Shown here: in pieces, positions 4,886 through 34,440 of the stretch
Numbering within the stretch: the stretch's first letter is position 1
Layout of the letters: every line of letters starts with the position of its first letter
DNA from: a virus
Taxonomy: Duplodnaviria; Heunggongvirae; Uroviricota; Caudoviricetes
Direction: 5' to 3' (one strand)
Virus record (IMG/VR): IMGVR_UViG_3300039008_000325
Location: 1 to 49,371 of that record
Length of the DNA: 49,371 nucleotides
Translations under genes and position numbers: made by a program
The notes under the pieces: generated by a model
The model's database searches: none
Seen by the model: only the letters and a program-made list of their open reading frames with translations
What the model was told of the DNA's origin: nothing

Positions 4886-5350
4886 TTAATCCTTTAAAAC
4901 TTCTTTTGATTTTACTGCTAGTTTATCAACGATTTCATTGTAATGATTTCCATTATGACCTCTAACCCAATTCCATTTTATATTATGAAGTGTATTGAAG
5001 TTATCTAATTCTATCCATAAATCTTTATTCTTTACTGGTTTAGAAACGTTAGTTTTCCATTCTTTAGTTACCCAACCATTTCTTTTCCAATTATGAATCC
5101 ATTCTTCAATACCTTTTTGAACATATTGCGAATCGGTAAATACTTCTATATCATATATAGGTTCCTTAATAACTCGAATAGTTTGAATAACAGCTTTCAT
5201 TTCCATTCTATTATTAGTTGTAGTATCTTCCGATCCACAAACTCTTTTCACAATTTTATCATTGTGAATAATAATACCAGCATAACCACCATTTCCATTT
5301 GGACTAGATGCACCATCTGTATATACTTGCAATTTAACTCTTTCAGACAT
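4886..5350 (-). CDS. rnhA: ribonuclease HI (bacterial type)
   Basis: [51 protein letters not shown]. Confidence 0.95.
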
Positions 5351-25331: not shown

Positions 25332-26591
25332 CTATGTTAAATCTTCTATTCTTGTTCTTTGTGCAGTGTAGTTTTGATAGTTATCTATCTGATGTTTTCC
25401 ATATACTGCAAATACATGCTCACCATCTTCACAAACACTTTTTACAATACCAATTTCTTCTTGAGGTGTACCTTCTTTATAAGTAACTAAGTCACCTTCT
25501 TTTAAATTATGTTTTATTTCCACTTCACATATATTATATAATGGACAATTTCTACATTTTACTTCTGAATCATATTCTGTATTTAATAATTCATTTGTAA
25601 ACTTTAATGTTTTCTCATTATTCCAAATATCTTCAACAAAATTATCACATTCTAATACTGATAAACCTTCTTCCCATCCAGGTACTCCCTCTGAGAATGA
25701 ACAAGGATAAAAATCGCCATCTGTATTAATATATGAACTAAATAATGCACTTTCACAAGGTTCAACGTAATCAACAATTTCATCATATCTTTCTGGATAT
25801 AATTCTTTGATAGCTTTTAAGAATCTTTCAGCTCCACAACTATCAAATCCAAAATTAATTTTACTTTCAACTAGTTTCTTTACAACTAATTTATATTTTT
25901 CATCTGATAATACATTAAATTTTTCACCTCTACCTTTTTGTTTTAAAGATAGCAATACAATTGCATTTAATTTAGCTAATCTAGGATCTTCTTGAATATC
26001 ATCTATTGTTTCCATAATTTGATCAAACGTAGTTGAAGCAACTAATTGATGTATATTTACTTGATCCATTCCAGTGTCTGTTAATCTTTTAACTGAATCA
26101 TAACACCAATTTTTATTATGATATCTAGATACTGCACAAGCACCACATTTATCATGAATCTTTTGAGCTACTTCTTCTGTAATATTAGCTACTGTTAGAT
26201 TAGGAATAATACCTTTTTCTCTAGTGTAATCAAATATTTTCCACATATCTGGATTAGATGTACAAGTTGCATCTACACCAAATGCTATTTGAGTTACCGT
26301 TTTAGGTAATTTATCTGCAATAGTTTTATATGTTTCAAATGACATATAATTACCATTCATAGTGTTTGATTTATAACAGAATGGACATGGAACACCAGCT
26401 GGACCATTACATATAGTTGTTATTTCAATATCTGCAATTAATGGACCATATTTAGAACAAGTCGGATCTTCATCTTTAGTTCTACCCCAAGTTTCCATAT
26501 AACCTGTTATTTTATCAAAATTCCAATTGATTTCTTCTGATCTGAATATTTTGAATTTTTCTGTTTCTATTAACTTAGCTTTCATTTTCAT
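25332..26591 (-). CDS. radical SAM protein with SPASM/twitch-like domain
   Basis: DIEITTICNGPAGVPCPFCY (CX7CX2C), YINTDGDFYPCSF, CRNCPLY. Confidence 0.85.
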   Translation of the reverse strand: MKMKAKLIETEKFKIFRSEEINWNFDKITGYMETWGRTKDEDPTCSKYGPLIADIEITTICNGPAGVPCPFCYKSNTMNGNYMSFETYKTIADKLPKTVTQIAFGVDATCTSNPDMWKIFDYTREKGIIPNLTVANITEEVAQKIHDKCGACAVSRYHNKNWCYDSVKRLTDTGMDQVNIHQLVASTTFDQIMETIDDIQEDPRLAKLNAIVLLSLKQKGRGEKFNVLSDEKYKLVVKKLVESKINFGFDSCGAERFLKAIKELYPERYDEIVDYVEPCESALFSSYINTDGDFYPCSFSEGVPGWEEGLSVLECDNFVEDIWNNEKTLKFTNELLNTEYDSEVKCRNCPLYNICEVEIKHNLKEGDLVTYKEGTPQEEIGIVKSVCEDGEHVFAVYGKHQIDNYQNYTAQRTRIEDLT

Positions 26592-27879: not shown

Positions 27880-28025
27880 AAAAAATAACCCAACACGCAT
27901 ATATTAGACGGTTGGGTGGGAAAGGAGGAGAGGGGAGAAGATAATAACTAGCCTAAATATATTGTTTCTAACAGATAGCTATCAATCTCTGAAATGAATT
28001 TATTATCTTAATATTGAAATTCATA
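27880..28025 (-). ncRNA. candidate small RNA A with anti-SD tract
   Basis: TTGATT-N16-TAATAT at 28059-28032; CUUCUCCCCUCUCCUCCUUUCCC at 27940-27918; ACCCAAC/GUUGGGU hairpin plus U-run. Confidence 0.55.
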
Positions 28026-28062: not shown

Positions 28063-28095
28063 AAAAAGGAGAAAAAATTAACTTTTCTCCTTTTT
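28063..28095. terminator. bidirectional-type intrinsic terminator after the TerD-domain gene
   Basis: AAAAAGGAGAAAA/TTTTCTCCTTTTT 13-bp inverted repeat. Confidence 0.8.
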
Positions 28096-28117: not shown

Positions 28118-30328
28118 TTACATTAAATTTCCTAAAATATAATCAACATCTGTAGGTTTTATATCACCTTCTTCTAGTCCAAAACAGATATCTGCTTCTT
28201 CCCTATCTTCAGTGAATATTGACTTCTTTTGACCTTCCACATTTAATTTAACTAAATCAAATAGTTTTAATTTCTTTAAATTAGCGAATGAAGCTGCAAC
28301 TTCAGAATCATTTAATCTAGAATTACTTGCATTGATTCCAGGAAAATTACCTCTACCAGAATAATCAACCCAAATATATTCCATTGTCTTCATATCAATA
28401 ATAACAGATATATTATTATTTGAATTAGATTCTAAGATTACTTTTTCTTTTACTGTTTTAGGTTCAAATATTTCACCTGATTTTAAATCATTTCTCAACA
28501 TGAATCCGCAATAAGCTTCACCACCATTTTCATGAATAAATCTAAATGATTGACCAGTGTATACTTTGTTAGTAATCACAACATATCTATATCTCTTATC
28601 TTTATATTGTTCAGTTTCTTTTAACTTTGCAATATCAATATCAACATATTCTGCTGCTCCAGATGGTGCATTTGTAATATCTCCAGACATTGCTGTGTAT
28701 TCTCCAGATCTTTGATTATAATAAGCACAAGATTCAATTAATTTAAAATCTTCATCTAAGAAAGATGCACTTAAATCAATATCGACTCTTTCTGTGTCTG
28801 TATTTTTCCAATATACAAAACCTCTGACAACATTTTTATCTTCAGGTATTTTAAATCTACTACCTCTAGGTAAATTAGCTCTTTGAGTACTGTTTGAAAA
28901 TGGAACATAAACACCTTCTAAAGCTGGATCAAAGTAAACTTTACCAAAACCTTCTTTTTCTTGGAATCTTGTTTTTAATTCATTTTCACAAGCTATTTGA
29001 ATTCTTTCTAGAATACCAGCTACACCAAATATACCACCCCAATTTAACATATCTTTATTTCTTTTAACAAAGATTTTTTCACAACCTCTGATGAAATATG
29101 TATTATTATCAATATATGTACATCTAGTGTAAAGATCTAATAAACATTTTGTTGAAACATCACCAATAACACCTTTGAAGACATCTAAACAACTTCCATT
29201 ATTAATAGTTAAGTTAACAATATGTCTTGCTAGTTCAGTTGGTTTTTCTGATAATATTCTAGCAGCATCTAAATATTCACCTTTTTCTAGATTCATTTCA
29301 TATAAAGTGTTATTAGTAACAAATTTCATACTATTATAAACACAATCAAATACTTTATTTACATTTCTAAATTGTTTATAGCGTCTTACATGCCACTTTT
29401 CATTAATTCTTTTCCATCTGTTTCTATGATTCAACATATCATTCATATGTTTCTCATATGAAACTTCTAATAATACTTCTAATCTATTTAAGAATTTTCT
29501 TATTATAGGTCTTTTTATATTAACGAATTTAGTGTTTTCTATTAATGTAGTATCTCCATCACTCATATATGTATATAATTTTAATATATCAGTAGGTGAT
29601 CTTAATTCATTAAATGTTCTATTTTCATATCTTTCAGCTTTTAAAAATTCATTAATTACAAATAATTTAGTATCTTTATTAACCATACTTTCGAACAACT
29701 CATTTAATTCATTACCATTGAATGGCATATGAGTTGTAGATAATAAATAATCCTTAACATAATGTTTTTGATTATCATTTAATGATAATGAAGATTTTAG
29801 TAAGTTCTTCATAGAATCAATATAATCAGCAAAAGAAGCGTACTCAATAACCTTTGGTTTATAGTTACCAATTAATGGGAATCTTGTTTTTATTTCTTGT
29901 GTAATTTCAAGTTTTGCATTAAGAAAATATGTTGCAAGATAACTCATATATTGAGTGTAATATAGTTGTGATTCTTGCATAGTCAATACATCTTCAGGAA
30001 AGTTTTCCCACATAGGTTTATATTTAGCACCTGATTTTCTTTTAATTTCTTCATCTAAGAATTTATGGATTTTTTTAATATTATAAAATGATTTAGATAA
30101 GTCATTTATAATTGTATTTGATAATGTGTAACCATAGTGTTCAAGATACTTTAATAAAGCAGCTATTTCCCAAGCTCTTTCTTTTGTTATTTTTAGATCT
30201 TCATCAGAATTACTTTGTAATATGTCCATGTTATGTTTATCATTATCAGTATATTTTGTACCTGAATCAATAAATTGCATATGATCTAATTTTAATTTTT
30301 CTCTAAATAAATATTCATTAATTAACAT
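28118..30328 (-). CDS. large helical N-terminal domain + C-terminal TerD-like domain protein
   Basis: C-terminal YWKN...RVDIDLSA...SGDITNAPSGAAEYVDID is TerD-like; N-terminal ~480 aa helical (SPTDILK, RWKRINE, KPTELAR); TROVE-like identity is only inferred. Confidence 0.8.
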   Translation of the reverse strand: MLINEYLFREKLKLDHMQFIDSGTKYTDNDKHNMDILQSNSDEDLKITKERAWEIAALLKYLEHYGYTLSNTIINDLSKSFYNIKKIHKFLDEEIKRKSGAKYKPMWENFPEDVLTMQESQLYYTQYMSYLATYFLNAKLEITQEIKTRFPLIGNYKPKVIEYASFADYIDSMKNLLKSSLSLNDNQKHYVKDYLLSTTHMPFNGNELNELFESMVNKDTKLFVINEFLKAERYENRTFNELRSPTDILKLYTYMSDGDTTLIENTKFVNIKRPIIRKFLNRLEVLLEVSYEKHMNDMLNHRNRWKRINEKWHVRRYKQFRNVNKVFDCVYNSMKFVTNNTLYEMNLEKGEYLDAARILSEKPTELARHIVNLTINNGSCLDVFKGVIGDVSTKCLLDLYTRCTYIDNNTYFIRGCEKIFVKRNKDMLNWGGIFGVAGILERIQIACENELKTRFQEKEGFGKVYFDPALEGVYVPFSNSTQRANLPRGSRFKIPEDKNVVRGFVYWKNTDTERVDIDLSASFLDEDFKLIESCAYYNQRSGEYTAMSGDITNAPSGAAEYVDIDIAKLKETEQYKDKRYRYVVITNKVYTGQSFRFIHENGGEAYCGFMLRNDLKSGEIFEPKTVKEKVILESNSNNNISVIIDMKTMEYIWVDYSGRGNFPGINASNSRLNDSEVAASFANLKKLKLFDLVKLNVEGQKKSIFTEDREEADICFGLEEGDIKPTDVDYILGNLM

Positions 30329-30354
30329 TTTAACTCTCCTTTATATAATGTTAA

Positions 30355-30502
30355 TGTGATAATTGAGATCAGTATATCTTAGCTGCTCTACCAAACTGAG
30401 CTACTTCCCCATAGTAAAAATAATATGGTGGGGAAGGATGGAATTGAACCACCGACACGCTACTTTCACGTAACAGATGAAGGAACCAATCTCATATTCA
30501 CA
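30355..30502 (-). ncRNA. Y-RNA-like (YrlA-type) RNA with permuted tRNA-like domain, module 3
   Basis: Terminal stem UGUGA-AUA-UGAGAUUGGU / ACUGAUCUCA..UAUCACA enclosing T-arm GGUGG-UUCAAUU-CCAUC, acceptor CUUCCCC-ACCA, 15-nt linker, GGGGAAG and D-arm AGCUCAGUUUGGUAGAGC. Confidence 0.75.
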
Positions 30503-30508
30503 AATGTT

Positions 30509-30533
30509 GAAACCTGAGAGCGACTCAGGTTTC
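30509..30533. other. spacer hairpin between Y-like modules
   Basis: 10-bp GAAACCTGAG/CTCAGGTTTC stem. Confidence 0.65.
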
Positions 30534-30538
30534 TTTTC

Positions 30539-30614
30539 GTTGTATGATTATAATCAGTAATTTACTATTGTCCTGATAATTGTGTTTATGAAGGAACCAA
30601 TTATATATTACAAC
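30539..30614 (-). ncRNA. Y-RNA-like module 2
   Basis: GUUGUA/UACAAC and AUAAUUGGU/ACUGAUUAU stems; shares AUUGGUUCCUUCAU with module 3. Confidence 0.6.
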
Positions 30615-30620
30615 TTACTC

Positions 30621-30719
30621 AATACAGATTTTAATATGTGATGATTATTTCCACTAAGTTAATTTGTTTAAAAGACAAAGATTCTAGAAGGAAGTAAAAA
30701 TATATTCACAATCTGTATT
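30621..30719 (-). ncRNA. Y-RNA-like module 1
   Basis: 10-bp AAUACAGAUU/AAUCUGUAUU stem, GUGA/UCAC, shared UGUGAAUAU and UUCCUUC motifs. Confidence 0.6.
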
Positions 30720-30728
30720 ACCCTTTTT

Positions 30729-30756
30729 ATTATATAGAAAAAATATTTTAATTCAA
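30729..30756 (-). promoter_or_regulatory. promoter TTGAAT-N16-TATAAT driving the RNA array
   Basis: Predicted start falls a few nt before module 1. Confidence 0.65.
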
Positions 30757-31335: not shown

Positions 31336-33111
31336 CTATAATTTTGTTATTTCACTAAATCCTTGTGAATTCTGAACTATTTGAAATACATTATCAAAGT
31401 ACTCTTCTTTAAGATTTCTATGACTTATGATAAATATATTTAAGTTCTCTTGTTCATTTAATATCTTTAATAAGTTTTCAACACCTTCATTATCTAAACC
31501 TGCATCTAATATTTCATCTACAAATATTAAATTAGTTGATACTGAGTTATTGATCTTACCAATATATAACCAAGATAACAATAGTGATAAATCAATTCTT
31601 TGTTTTTGTCCAAAAGATAAACTATTATAATTTGTTTCTCTTCCTTCTCTAACAATCTTATCATCGAATACACTATTTAATTCAAATACACAATCCAATC
31701 CCAATTTATTTACATAATAATTAGTTCTTTCATTAATAATATCCACATATTTATTAATAATAGTTGCTTTAATACCTTTATCAGATAAATAAGCTGACAT
31801 TTTCTTCATAATATCAATTTTTTCTTGCAATTCAACTTTTGTTTTCTTATAATTTTCAGCTTCTAAATTATATTGTGCTACTTTTTCTTTATATTCAGCA
31901 ATACTAGCTTCTTCAGTATTGTCAGAATTATTAGCTGATTTAAGAGTTTCAATTTCATTAATTACAGAAATAATTGATTGTTCTTGTAATGTAATCTTTG
32001 TTTGAATTGTTCTTTGTGTAGAATTAAATGATTCAATCTTACGAGTTAACTCAATATTAATTTCTGTTTCTTTATTAATATCTTCTAATCTATCATTAAC
32101 TTTTTGAATATCACCTGTCAGTGTTTGAATATCACTAGTATTTTTAGAAAGAATATTATCTTTATAGTTAGTGTCAATTACTTGATGACAAGTTGGACAT
32201 GTTTCATTATTAGCTAAGAAATCATTTTGTTTTACTAACATACTCTTTTCACTGTTTTTAGTAGCTAATATAGTATTACCTTTTTGTTTTCTTTCATTTA
32301 AAACATTAACAGCTTCTCTTATAGTATTAATATCGGTATCAATAATATCAGCATTATCAGTCTTACATTGTTCTAAAGATGCTTTTAATTCAACTTCCGT
32401 TTCTCTAAGACTAACTAATCTAGATTCTATTTGTTTAATTTCTTCATCTCTCATATTCTCTTTAAGTTTTTTACTATCTAATATTAATTGAGTTTTATCA
32501 ATAATACTAGAGTAATCTTCTATTCTATTGTTTAGAGTGTTTAGAGAATTAGTAGTATCTTGAAAAGATTTATTTACTTTACTAGTGAGATCTTTTAGTT
32601 TAACGTTTAATTCTGATAATAAGTCCAATGATAGAATACTTTCAACTAAAGATCTTCTTTCTGGAGCACTTAAATCTAAGAATTTTGAATATTTAGAATT
32701 TAATAATATCATTTGTAAAAATGTTTTTTCATCAATCTTAATAATATCCATTAAACGTTTTTGATATAAAGCAACACTAGATTCTTGATCAATTAATTTA
32801 CCATTTTCATATATTTCAAATGTATCTGGTTTAATACCTCTAATTACTTTATAATCTTTTCCATTTGCTATGAAATCTAATTCAGTGTAAAGTTGTTTTT
32901 TATTTTTATTATTAATAATATCAGCTTTTTTAATTTTTCCAATAGCTTTACCAAATAAGTTAAAATATAAACTTTCTTGAATACTAGATTTACCCATTCC
33001 GTTTGTACCAACGATTAAGTTTGTACCACCATCTGAAAGATTAATTTCAGATAAAGTATTTCCATAACTTTTAAAGTTCTTAAATTTTAAAGTTTTAAAT
33101 GTTATTCTCAT
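31336..33111 (-). CDS. gp46: T4 gp46-like recombination endonuclease ATPase (SbcC/Rad50)
   Basis: FKNFKSYGN, GTNGMGKS, CPTC zinc hook, LSFGQKQRIDL, FVDEILD. Confidence 0.93.
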   Translation of the reverse strand: MRITFKTLKFKNFKSYGNTLSEINLSDGGTNLIVGTNGMGKSSIQESLYFNLFGKAIGKIKKADIINNKNKKQLYTELDFIANGKDYKVIRGIKPDTFEIYENGKLIDQESSVALYQKRLMDIIKIDEKTFLQMILLNSKYSKFLDLSAPERRSLVESILSLDLLSELNVKLKDLTSKVNKSFQDTTNSLNTLNNRIEDYSSIIDKTQLILDSKKLKENMRDEEIKQIESRLVSLRETEVELKASLEQCKTDNADIIDTDINTIREAVNVLNERKQKGNTILATKNSEKSMLVKQNDFLANNETCPTCHQVIDTNYKDNILSKNTSDIQTLTGDIQKVNDRLEDINKETEINIELTRKIESFNSTQRTIQTKITLQEQSIISVINEIETLKSANNSDNTEEASIAEYKEKVAQYNLEAENYKKTKVELQEKIDIMKKMSAYLSDKGIKATIINKYVDIINERTNYYVNKLGLDCVFELNSVFDDKIVREGRETNYNSLSFGQKQRIDLSLLLSWLYIGKINNSVSTNLIFVDEILDAGLDNEGVENLLKILNEQENLNIFIISHRNLKEEYFDNVFQIVQNSQGFSEITKL

Positions 33112-33494
33112 AATAATCCCATCTCTCTTCTTACTTTTAATTTATCTTTGATCTCATTATATTGTTCTATTGACATAAGTTTCAAGTATTGTTTAGATAT
33201 ATTTTCATTAACTTTATAATAATCTGAAATATCCTCTAACATCTTATCTTCATCTTTTTTAACTTTAAATTTACAGAAGTAACTTTTTTCCGGAATAATA
33301 TCTTTCAAAAAGTTATAATGTTGTTCATCTGTTATTTGATATTGAGTTATTTCTTCAATAATCTCAATAATCTCATGAAAATTTGAAAAATAACTATTAA
33401 TCATAGTTTGACTGTAAGCTTTTTTGAAACTAGGATCCCAATCACATTTAAATTGCGTGATATTTTTTATAATATCAAAAATGTTTAGTTTCAT
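33108..33494 (-). CDS. gp62: clamp loader small subunit (gp62-like)
   Basis: IFDIIKNI...YSQTMINSYFS...HYNFL; directly follows gp44. Confidence 0.75.
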   Translation of the reverse strand: MKLNIFDIIKNITQFKCDWDPSFKKAYSQTMINSYFSNFHEIIEIIEEITQYQITDEQHYNFLKDIIPEKSYFCKFKVKKDEDKMLEDISDYYKVNENISKQYLKLMSIEQYNEIKDKLKVRREMGLL

Positions 33495-33504
33495 TTTAAT
33501 CTCC

Positions 33505-34440
33505 TTACCAATCTGACATAATTTCAGTTAAACAAGCTAATAATGATATCTCTTTATTACCTACAATACTTCTATTCTCATATTTACTTATAATTAATAT
33601 AATTGATATTTTTAATTTAGATGTTTCTGCAATTTCTTTATATAATACATCATATAAATCTTTATAAACTCTAGTGTTAAAACTATTATTTCTTACCCAT
33701 TCTTTAATCATTTTATAATTTTTAGATTTAATATAATCAACAATCGGTGCATATAAAGATTCTTTTGTTTCAGAAATATACTCATTAACTCTACCAGTTG
33801 CATTATATATTTCTTGCAACTTAGATATGATTGATCTAATATCTGGAAATGCATCTTGTATTATATTAGTAACAGTTCTTTTATCATAATCAATGTTAGA
33901 TTGTTCTAATATATTAAACATTCTTTTTTGAATATTTTTTGCAATTACCAATCTTTCATCAAATTTAATATTAAAATCTATAATTGGACATCTTGAAATT
34001 AAAGGTTCAATTATTCTTTCTTTATAGTTACAAGTTAAAATGAAACTACAATTATTATGAAATTGCTCTATCATACCTCTTAAAGCTGGCATTGCAGAAT
34101 TAATTGTTAAATAATCAGCTTCATCAATAATAATAACTTTCTTCTTTCCATTAAAAGATTGTGTCATACAGAATGTCTCTACTTTATTTCTTAACATGTC
34201 GATTCCATTTTCTTTAGAACCATTTAAGAAAAGATGTTCACGATCTAACACTTTAACTAGTAACTTAGCTATAGTTGTTTTTCCTGAACCTGGTTGACTA
34301 CTATATAATGTCATATTAGGTATATTATCAGTTTTGATCATATTATCAAATTTTGATCTTAAACTATCTGATATTACTACATCTTCTAATTTCGTTGGTC
34401 TCCAACGTTCTGCCCAAATTTCTTCATTAACTAAAGACAT
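33505..34440 (-). CDS. gp44: clamp loader large subunit (gp44-like)
   Basis: WAERWRP, PGSGKTT, IIIDEAD, FILTCNY, PLISRC, PDIR. Confidence 0.93.
   Translation of the reverse strand: MSLVNEEIWAERWRPTKLEDVVISDSLRSKFDNMIKTDNIPNMTLYSSQPGSGKTTIAKLLVKVLDREHLFLNGSKENGIDMLRNKVETFCMTQSFNGKKKVIIIDEADYLTINSAMPALRGMIEQFHNNCSFILTCNYKERIIEPLISRCPIIDFNIKFDERLVIAKNIQKRMFNILEQSNIDYDKRTVTNIIQDAFPDIRSIISKLQEIYNATGRVNEYISETKESLYAPIVDYIKSKNYKMIKEWVRNNSFNTRVYKDLYDVLYKEIAETSKLKISIILIISKYENRSIVGNKEISLLACLTEIMSDW

What the first reader, a model, noticed from the sequence alone, without database searches (positions are those of the whole stretch)
28118..30756. Tandem Y-RNA-like array upstream of a helical+TerD protein: candidate non-canonical Ro60-like RNP
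Seen: a promoter is followed by three self-closing stem modules (30719-30621, 30614-30539, 30502-30355) sharing UGU(G)AAUAU, a single-stranded UUCCUUC and a complementary 3' arm; the last module ends about 27 nt before the start of the 736-aa gene. Known: bacterial Y RNAs are encoded next to Ro60/Rsr (TROVE + vWA) genes, have a bulged terminal helix, and YrlA types carry a tRNA-like domain. Inference: this protein is a Ro60-like partner with TerD in place of vWA, forming a phage RNA-repair, RNA-decay or anti-defence ribonucleoprotein with several RNA cofactors.
Basis: partly seen in the sequence, partly recalled or inferred. Interest (0 to 1): 0.88.

Follow-up and report, generated by a model that had tools for sequence, protein, structure and literature searches.

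The report
Phage Y-RNA-like array with TerD protein
Three small folded RNAs, one a tRNA look-alike, sit in front of an unnamed 736-residue phage protein (a helical part whose shape resembles Ro60, plus a TerD domain), and the same RNA-protein pairing recurs in hundreds of phages and bacteria, pointing to an undescribed cousin of the Ro60/Y-RNA particle.

Summary
A covariance model built only from other genomes finds exactly three hits in the 49-kb window: 30712-30635, 30613-30540 and 30504-30353 (minus strand). They lie between a promoter-like site and the 736-aa gene, which ends in an intrinsic terminator. Module 3 carries a YrlA-type permuted tRNA mimic (Rfam YrlA, 37.8 bits, below the curated cut-off) with a 7-bp acceptor stem and an encoded ACCA.

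The same RNA handle flanks homologues in 65 of 66 phage loci and 78 of 80 bacterial loci. All 367 hits lie on the gene's strand, and the stems covary strongly. No other neighbour is conserved, and the genomes checked have no canonical Ro60.

The best reading is a Ro60/Y-RNA-like ribonucleoprotein with TerD in place of vWA. Binding and function remain untested. Neither Rfam 15, Pfam nor the searched literature describes it. This scan has reported the same system before on other DNA (at least 32 notes).

The parts
30729..30756 (-). Sigma-70-like promoter candidate (TTGAAT-16-TATAAT) just upstream of module 1
   Evidence: It matches 10 of 12 positions. This is weak evidence, because such sites are common in this AT-rich region (9 found, 6.1 expected).
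30621..30719 (-). RNA module 1. The handle core is 30635-30712, with an extra outer closing stem. Its cargo is a small hairpin.
   Evidence: R1 covariance model 35.8 bits, E 2.8e-8. Self-closing fold, z -2.36.
30540..30613 (-). RNA module 2. It has the handle and a short variable cargo.
   Evidence: R1 26.3 bits, E 2e-5. Fold z -2.02. The inner stem covaries with that of module 3.
30509..30533 (.). G+C-rich hairpin between modules 2 and 3. The scan calls it terminator-like only on the plus strand.
   Evidence: Its role is unknown; it could be a processing or pause element.
30353..30504 (-). RNA module 3. The handle carries a 106-nt cargo.
   Evidence: R1 17.8 bits, E 0.007. Rfam YrlA RF02553 37.8 bits, E 1.1e-6, model positions 1-114. 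Fold z -3.44.
30385..30453 (-). Permuted tRNA-like domain inside module 3. Its parts are the T arm (30453-30437), the acceptor 3' strand CUUCCCC (30436-30430), ACCA (30429-30426), a loop running to 30411, the acceptor 5' strand GGGGAAG (30410-30404) and the D arm (30401-30385).
   Evidence: Sequence read. Alignments to YrlA and permuted tmRNA. 7 of 7 acceptor pairs plus NCCA. ARAGORN calls no tRNA here.
28118..30328 (-). 736-aa protein P0001. It is preceded by the Shine-Dalgarno sequence AAAGGAGAG.
   Evidence: ORF. No Pfam family; PHROG 33734, function unknown. 2141 cluster representatives at E<=1e-3. AF2 model pLDDT 88, pTM 0.86.
28895..29827 (-). Helical repeat domain (residues 168-478) whose best solved-structure neighbour is Ro60.
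28286..28852 (-). TerD-fold domain (residues 493-681).
28063..28095 (-). Intrinsic terminator 23 nt after the stop codon.
   Evidence: 14-bp stem followed by a U tract, against 0.1 such sites expected in shuffles.

Best explanation
The region 30756-28063 (minus strand) is one transcription unit for a ribonucleoprotein built on the plan of Ro60 with its Y RNAs.

The three upstream RNAs share a conserved 'handle': an outer stem, a small internal loop, an 8-bp inner stem, and an invariant pyrimidine strand UUCCUUC. Each handle carries a different 'cargo': two small hairpins and one tRNA mimic.

I infer that the 736-aa protein binds the handle with its helical, Ro60-shaped domain. A metal- or ligand-binding TerD domain sits where Ro60 has its vWA domain. 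I also infer that the cargos recruit or mimic other partners. The tRNA-like cargo is expected to be recognised by tRNA enzymes. Its 7-bp acceptor stem and encoded ACCA make it a likely RNase P substrate, as shown experimentally for M. smegmatis YrlA.

The most likely role is handling of structured RNA or tRNA (quality control, decay or protection) during infection.

What is shown: the RNA structures, their family membership, the domain folds, and the conserved RNA-gene linkage. What is inferred: direct binding, RNA processing and the biological role.
For: 1. A model built from other genomes picks out only these three modules in the window.
2. The handle structure covaries. 90.7 % of cells pair, against 51.6 % in shuffles and 39-48 % with slid partners. 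The outer stem was not used to select the sequences, and its columns 4-82 and 5-81 pair in 92 and 95 of 97 sequences, using all four Watson-Crick pair types.
3. Linkage is tight. There are 240 hits in 65 of 66 non-redundant phage loci and 127 hits in 78 of 80 bacterial loci. Every hit is on the gene's strand, and nearly all abut the gene.
4. No protein-coding neighbour is conserved across the 80 bacterial loci.
5. No TROVE protein was found in this phage record or in 5 bacterial genomes that carry the gene.
6. Cargos carrying tRNA-like parts recur. There are 22 distinct self-closed permuted tRNA mimics (5 of them with NCCA), and T-loop-like motifs occur in 14 % of phage cargos and 6.6 % of bacterial cargos, against 0.8 % background. 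Module 3 matches YrlA at E 1e-6.
8. Divergent proteins travel with divergent handles. Examples are this window, Weasels2 (15.8-20.2 bits) and a RING-bearing sister protein with a module 60 nt upstream.
9. For canonical Y RNAs, Chen et al. 2014 (PMC4201824) show Ro60 binding, the tRNA-like module and RNase P/CCA processing.
Against: - No sequence method links the protein to TROVE.
- Foldseek finds no Ro60 in PDB or Swiss-Prot models.
- The handle lacks the published YrlA Ro-binding motif GNCGAAN0-1G.
- The YrlA score is below Rfam's curated cut-off (37.8 against 69).
- Here the RNAs lie in the gene's own 5' leader, so a purely cis-acting role cannot be excluded for this locus alone.
- No expression or binding data exist.
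- In this phage the 18 tRNA genes lie 34 kb away on the other strand, so the tRNA link seen in other phages is not local here.
Confidence: 0.65

Rival explanations
1. The modules are cis-acting leader elements. The protein, or another factor, binds its own 5' UTR to control translation or stability of the mRNA. The anti-Shine-Dalgarno-like UUCCUUC could, for example, mask the AAAGGAGAG ribosome-binding site. No free RNP would form.
For: In the window all three modules lie between a promoter-like site and the start codon, and the last one ends 24 nt before the ATG. UCCUU is complementary to the AAGGA of the ribosome-binding site (read from the sequence). In many bacterial loci one or two modules sit directly upstream of the gene.
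Against: In many loci the modules lie downstream of the stop codon, or on both sides of the gene, in arrays of up to 8 interleaved with tRNA genes. The cargos include complete tRNA mimics with CCA. The motif is equally conserved in phyla with very different Shine-Dalgarno usage (the point about Shine-Dalgarno usage is background knowledge).
Confidence: 0.12
2. The protein-RNA partnership is real, but the protein is not related to Ro60. Its helical domain belongs with the RING-linked SCO0854/MXAN_6230 and EH-signature-like nucleic-acid-binding proteins, and the particle works differently. The RNAs might act as guides, sensors or decoys coupled to TerD ligand signalling.
For: NCBIfam NF041916 (RING_SCO0854) matches at 218 bits for P0001 and 325-461 bits for four homologues. 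Atlas and AFDB neighbours are RING, TerD and 'ZorC EH domain' entries with TM 0.6-0.77. A true RING-family member has the same RNA upstream. TROVE is undetectable by sequence. ZorC binds nucleic acid through its EH domain (PMC11946911).
Against: In the wide structural search, solved Ro60 chains outrank every other chain for the helical domain, and ZorC was not among the top 50. The YrlA-type cargo is otherwise known only beside Ro60 (PMC4201824). The 'ZorC EH' label is an automatic annotation, and Pfam EH_Signature matches 0 of 62 members.
Confidence: 0.18
3. The RNAs act on their own, as tRNA-like decoys, processing signals or small regulatory RNAs, and only share a transcription unit with the gene. 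There is no physical complex.
For: No binding data exist. In phages the modules are embedded in tRNA arrays (47 of 83 loci; 198 tRNA and tmRNA genes, all co-oriented with the gene).
Against: The RNA is the only neighbour conserved across 78 of 80 bacterial loci from many phyla, where tRNA genes are not nearby (3 of 80). Handle variants track protein divergence.
Confidence: 0.05

Closest known systems
Bacterial and phage Ro60 (Rsr) with YrlA/YrlB Y RNAs (Rfam RF02553; Chen et al. 2014, PMC4201824)
   Same: One to several small RNAs are encoded beside, and co-oriented with, a large RNA-binding protein. A closing helix with an internal loop or bulge serves as the presumed protein site. The effector module carries a T arm, a loop-closed acceptor stem and a D arm in the same permuted order. 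A second, hairpin-type RNA is present (like YrlB). The 7-bp acceptor stem is as in M. smegmatis YrlA, which RNase P cleaves. The helical domain is the best structural match to Ro60.
   Different: There is no TROVE signature by any sequence method. TerD replaces vWA/MIDAS. There are about 167 extra N-terminal residues. The handle motif (GGCUAU...CUUCCUUCU...UAG...RNUUUCC; in this window UGAAUAU...UUCCUUC...AAUYAUCA) is unlike GNCGAAN0-1G. The YrlA score is below the curated cut-off. Phage arrays reach up to 8 RNAs.
Thermus phage phiLo Ro60 (PDB 9l5y; PMC12135203)
   Different: phiLo Ro60 is reported as a homologue with the canonical doughnut shape. The aligned residues are 12 % identical, and P0001 has a TerD domain.
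MXAN_6230/SCO0854 family RING domain-containing proteins (NCBIfam NF041916; Pfam Prok-RING_4)
   Same: They share the helical and TerD core (P0001 residues 331-703 match profile positions 381-756). One true member (L173) also has a handle RNA 60 nt upstream on the same strand.
   Different: P0001 has no RING finger and scores 218 bits against a cut-off of 600. No function is published for that family in the library searched.
TerD-domain tellurite-resistance proteins (PF02342; PDB 2qz7, 2kxt, 3ibz)
   Different: Classical TerD proteins are single-domain proteins of about 190 aa in ter operons and have no known RNA partner.
Two-piece (permuted) tmRNA (Rfam RF04321)
   Same: The gene order is permuted: T arm, acceptor 3' strand with CCA, an intervening loop, then the acceptor 5' strand (24.9-bit partial match).
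   Different: There is no tag reading frame, no pseudoknots and no G3:U70 pair. Only the tRNA-like part matches, and the score is below the cut-off.

Membership tests
Ro60 / TROVE (PF05731) | TROVE domain detectable by sequence profile | tested here: not met
   Pfam finds no hit for P0001 at E<=10 and 0 of 62 family members at E<=1. hhalign of A1 against a 16-sequence TROVE alignment gives probability 0.13 %. The family HMM against PDB sequences gives no Ro60.
Ro60 / TROVE (PF05731) | Ring of HEAT-like helical repeats | tested here: inconclusive
Ro60 / TROVE (PF05731) | C-terminal vWA domain with a MIDAS site | tested here: not met
Ro60 / TROVE (PF05731) | Adjacent, co-oriented Y RNA gene(s), at least one with a tRNA-like module | tested here: met
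YrlA (Rfam RF02553) | Score at or above the curated cut-off (69 bits) | tested here: not met
   37.8 bits, E 1.1e-6, full model 1-114. Relatives in other loci score 26-40 bits.
YrlA (Rfam RF02553) | T arm, loop-closed acceptor stem and D arm inserted in a closing helix | tested here: met
   Alignment, coordinates checked, fold.
YrlA (Rfam RF02553) | Ro-binding 5' strand motif GNCGAAN0-1G (PMC4201824) | tested here: not met
   The handles read UGUGAAUAU or UGUAAUAU here and GGCUAU in the wider family.
Handle-cargo RNA family defined here (model R1) | Outer stem, 4-nt/5-nt internal loop, 8-bp inner stem, CUUCCUUCU strand and 3' RNUUUCC | tested here: met
   All three modules are full-length hits to a model that did not include them. 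The window's copies are a divergent subtype in which the GG/CC pair and CUAU are replaced. No family of Rfam 15 reached E 0.1 on the plain handle modules of 19 loci; the only matches on modules are weak YrlA hits on those with a tRNA-like cargo.
TerD (PF02342) | TerD fold or profile match | tested here: met
RING_SCO0854 (NF041916) | Score at or above 600 bits, and an N-terminal RING finger | tested here: not met
   218 bits, covering only profile positions 381-756. No RING domain was found by Pfam.
tRNA gene | Canonical cloverleaf with an anticodon arm | tested here: not met
   ARAGORN finds no tRNA in the window. The domain order is permuted and there is no anticodon arm.

The most novel reading that the evidence does not exclude
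This is a widespread, undescribed class of ribonucleoprotein in bacteria and large phages that did not descend from TROVE. A TerD-domain protein reads a universal RNA handle and displays interchangeable cargos. In phages the arrays have expanded, and some cargos, including the one here, would be cut by RNase P into two-piece, CCA-ended tRNA mimics. Those mimics would act on tRNA-directed host immunity or on translation, as decoys, sensors or recruiters, rather than in Ro60-style RNA decay.
Probability: 0.3. Interest if true: 0.9.

Novelty: new variant of a known kind. Interest (0 to 1): 0.8.

Why it matters
Ro60/Y RNA is the only known RNP of this design, and its bacterial roles are still poorly understood. 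This would be a second family built in parallel. It is far more common in large phages and is also present in many bacterial phyla. It has a defined RNA handle, swappable cargos and a TerD module in place of vWA. It would explain many unannotated intergenic RNA arrays beside phage tRNA clusters and give 'TerD family' proteins an RNA partner. It also offers a compact two-component system for studying how tRNA mimics are used in phage-host conflict. The locus is small enough to test directly.

Tried and rejected
- blastn of the locus against phage records found no match.
- Foldseek of the N-terminal domain against PDB and Swiss-Prot models gave only non-significant TPR/HEAT rows and no Ro60.
- The family HMM against PDB sequences found nothing.
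- hhalign against a TROVE alignment gave probability 0.13 %. That alignment was shallow: mostly mycobacterial Rsr plus six divergent actinobacterial ORFs.
- Pfam found no TROVE, EH_Signature or DUF4132 match in 62 members.
- The AFDB top hit is labelled 'ZorC EH domain'. I treated this as an automatic label, because solved ZorC was not among the top 50 rows of the wide structural search.
- A search for conserved protein neighbours in 80 bacterial loci found none beyond within-genus synteny.
- Listeria phage P100 is a relative of CKA15, for which abundant ncRNAs upstream of an HHpred Rsr-like gene were reported (PMC12282133). It has no homologue of this protein and no handle RNA, so that case is a different protein family.
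- The word-index protein search for P0001 gave only 3 hits, named 'TerD family protein'.
- The model R1 found no module in the 514-nt gap downstream of the gene.
- Complex prediction was not used. Two copies of the protein exceed its size limit, and its chain fields list only proteins and ligands, not RNA.
Full report
**Setting.** The window is the first 49 kb of a 137.7-kb IMG/VR virus record (26 % G+C, CheckV completeness 77 %). The finding covers a 736-aa ORF on the minus strand (28118-30328) and the 442-nt intergenic region upstream of it. Neighbouring genes on the same strand are a clamp-loader-like AAA+ protein, an SbcC-like protein and a possible NT5C-like nucleotidase (below Pfam's cut-off) upstream, and a radical-SAM/SPASM protein downstream.

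- The intergenic RNA folds far better than shuffles (z -3.75), into three self-closing modules plus one G+C-rich hairpin.
- Each module folded alone gives the described closing stem (z -2.36, -2.02, -3.44).
- All three share the same layout: 5' arm, AUAU, an 8-bp variable stem, UUCCUUC, cargo, the complementary strand, AAUCA or AAUUA, and the 3' arm.
- Modules 2 and 3 differ by compensatory changes in the inner stem.
- A promoter-like site (30756-30729) precedes module 1. This is weak evidence in AT-rich DNA.
- An intrinsic terminator (28095-28063) follows the stop codon.
- The RNAs and the gene therefore look like one transcription unit.

**Module 3 is a YrlA-type tRNA mimic.**
- It matches Rfam YrlA over the whole model at 37.8 bits, E 1e-6. 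This is below the curated cut-off of 69 bits.
- The matched part is a permuted tRNA: T arm (GGUGG-UUCAAUU-CCAUC), acceptor 3' strand CUUCCCC, ACCA, a 15-nt loop, acceptor 5' strand GGGGAAG, UA, and D arm GCUC-AGUUUGGUA-GAGC.
- ARAGORN calls no tRNA in the window.
- Chen et al. 2014 showed that M. smegmatis YrlA, the one YrlA with a 7-bp acceptor stem, is cut by RNase P and receives CCA in vivo (PMC4201824).
- The window's element has the same 7-bp stem and already encodes ACCA, so the same processing is a concrete prediction.

**The protein.**
- P0001 matches no Pfam family. It matches PHROG 33734, of unknown function.
- It belongs to a large family: 2141 representatives of 50 %-identity clusters at E<=1e-3, mostly about 700 aa long. 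NCBI names members 'TerD family protein'.
- With a 77-sequence alignment, AlphaFold2 gives a confident model (pLDDT 88, pTM 0.86).

**Evidence against a Ro60 relationship.**
- Foldseek finds no Ro60 in PDB or Swiss-Prot models.
- The family HMM finds nothing in PDB sequences.
- hhalign against a TROVE alignment gives probability 0.13 %.
- No family member matches Pfam TROVE.
- I conclude that the fold resembles Ro60 more than anything else solved, but common descent is not shown.
- The nearest predicted structures and the nearest curated model are RING-bearing SCO0854/MXAN_6230 proteins, which share the helical and TerD core.

**The RNA-protein pairing is general.** I collected 80 phage or viral loci and 80 bacterial loci encoding homologues.
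- A simple pattern (GGCYAY, 4-14 nt, UYCUUC) occurs 227 times on the gene's strand and 4 times on the other strand in the viral loci. In the bacterial loci the counts are 122 and 3. The occurrences cluster just before or just after the gene.
- An alignment of 97 distinct modules shows a 7-bp outer stem ending in an invariant GG/CC pair, then CUAU opposite RNUUU, an 8-bp inner stem, an invariant CUUCCUUCU, a variable cargo, and UAG.
- Pairing is 90.7 %, against 51.6 % in shuffles and 39-48 % when partners are slid.
- The inner stem was used to pick the sequences. The outer stem was not, and it still pairs in 92-95 of 97 sequences at its two innermost variable positions, using all four Watson-Crick types.
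- The covariance model R1 built from this alignment finds 240 hits in 65 of 66 non-redundant phage loci and 127 hits in 78 of 80 bacterial loci. All 367 hits are on the gene's strand.
- The hits include the named phage Xoo-sp13 and record MT835874. With filters off, Rhodococcus phage Weasels2 also scores; its four downstream modules use a variant handle, and one carries a tRNA mimic.
- R1 had never seen the window, yet it ranks the window's three modules first, second and third with nothing else significant. It finds no further copy in the whole 137.7-kb record.

**What the comparison adds.**
- In bacteria the unit is minimal: the gene plus one or two RNAs. No other neighbour is conserved, and tRNA genes are nearby in only 3 of 80 loci.
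- Five such bacterial genomes, and this phage record, have no TROVE protein. The Y-like RNAs therefore cannot be serving a canonical Ro60 there.
- In phages the arrays grow to as many as 8 modules and sit inside tRNA clusters. 47 of 83 loci have tRNA or tmRNA genes nearby, and all 198 of those genes are co-oriented with the gene.
- Cargos are enriched for tRNA parts. T-loop-like motifs occur in 14 % of phage cargos against 0.8 % background. There are 22 distinct complete permuted tRNA mimics. Five of them, including this window's, carry NCCA after the acceptor strand and have long loops; the rest are closed by 3-17-nt loops.
- In this phage the 18 tRNA genes lie at 64-70 kb on the other strand, so the locus stands alone.
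- A true member of the RING-bearing sister family also has a handle RNA 60 nt upstream. The RNA therefore goes with the helical and TerD core, not with the N-terminus.

**Mechanism (inferred).**
- By analogy with Ro60, the two helices and the internal loop of the handle would be the protein-binding site. The invariant single-stranded CUUCCUUCU would be either a further contact or a strand that enters a central cavity.
- The cargo would be the effector module.
- TerD takes the place of the metal-binding vWA domain. The acidic residues kept invariant across the family (D516, D518, D550, E560, D563) fit a metal or ligand site.
- The window's copies score lower with R1 (18-36 bits, against 40-70 typical) and replace GGCUAU...UUUCC by UGAAUAU...AAUYAUCA. 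P0001 is only 27-34 % identical to its relatives. This fits co-divergence of RNA and protein, which I did not test formally.

**Prior knowledge.**
- No family of Rfam 15 reached E 0.1 on the plain handle modules of 19 loci, and none reached E 10 on the window's modules 1 and 2. The only matches on modules are weak YrlA hits on those with a tRNA-like cargo.
- Full-text searches combining TerD, Y RNA, TROVE, tRNA-like and structured ncRNA terms found no description of the pairing.
- The jumbo-phage survey of Iyer et al. mentions TROVE proteins and standalone TerD genes separately and does not link them (PMC7824862).
- A Listeria phage study proposed Y RNAs upstream of an HHpred Rsr-like gene (PMC12282133). 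The related phage P100 has neither this protein family nor the handle.
- This scan's own notebook holds at least 32 earlier notes of the same system on other genomes. They agree with what I tested here but are not independent evidence.

**Verdict.** It is plausible but unproven for the Ro60 fold, and untested for function. I class this as a new variant of a known kind (the Ro60/Y-RNA design) that may prove to be an independent class.

Noticed in passing
window 27890-27945 (minus strand): A striking C-rich polypyrimidine tract (UCUUCUCCCCUCUCCUCCUUUCCCACCCAAC) followed by a hairpin and a U run. It lies in a 514-nt gene-free gap downstream of the terminator, in a 26 % G+C genome, and is anti-Shine-Dalgarno-like. 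R1 does not match it.
   Followed up: no
window 30509-30533: A 10-bp G+C-rich hairpin lies between modules 2 and 3. The scan calls it a terminator only on the plus strand, where no gene converges. It may be a processing or pause site within the RNA array.
   Followed up: partly
G000 64454-70228 (outside the window): A cluster of 18 tRNA genes on the plus strand of the same phage record, 34 kb from the RNP locus.
   Followed up: partly
L173:4119-4186 (minus strand), beside the gene at L173:1501-4059: A bona fide MXAN_6230/SCO0854 RING-domain protein (1138 bits) in an actinobacterial genome has a handle RNA 60 nt upstream. The same contig also encodes a TROVE protein about 60 kb away (L170).
   Followed up: partly
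L031:1900-1970: A skipping-rope RNA (RF02924, 48.3 bits, above its cut-off) lies next to a tRNA and the handle array in a phage locus.
   Followed up: no
L001:808-1108, L050:1286-1599, L063:4855-5214: Phage-encoded tmRNA genes lie within the same tRNA/handle-RNA clusters that flank homologues of the protein.
   Followed up: no
L070:5690-5766, L073:1585-1663 and 5241-5315: ARAGORN calls 'tRNA-Pyl' genes in two phage loci. These may be amber-suppressor tRNAs, which would hint at stop-codon recoding in those phages.
   Followed up: no
L002:4390-4760 (Rhodococcus phage Weasels2, downstream of gp266): Four tandem modules use a variant handle (AGGnUUAAG...UUACUUC...CGCUCACC), and the third carries a permuted tRNA mimic. 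The record leaves this 390-nt gap unannotated.
   Followed up: partly
window 25332-26591 and 31336-34440 (minus strand): Context genes: a radical-SAM/SPASM protein (PHROG 7293), an SbcC-like ATPase and a clamp-loader-like AAA+ protein. The RNP locus therefore lies in a DNA-metabolism region.
   Followed up: partly
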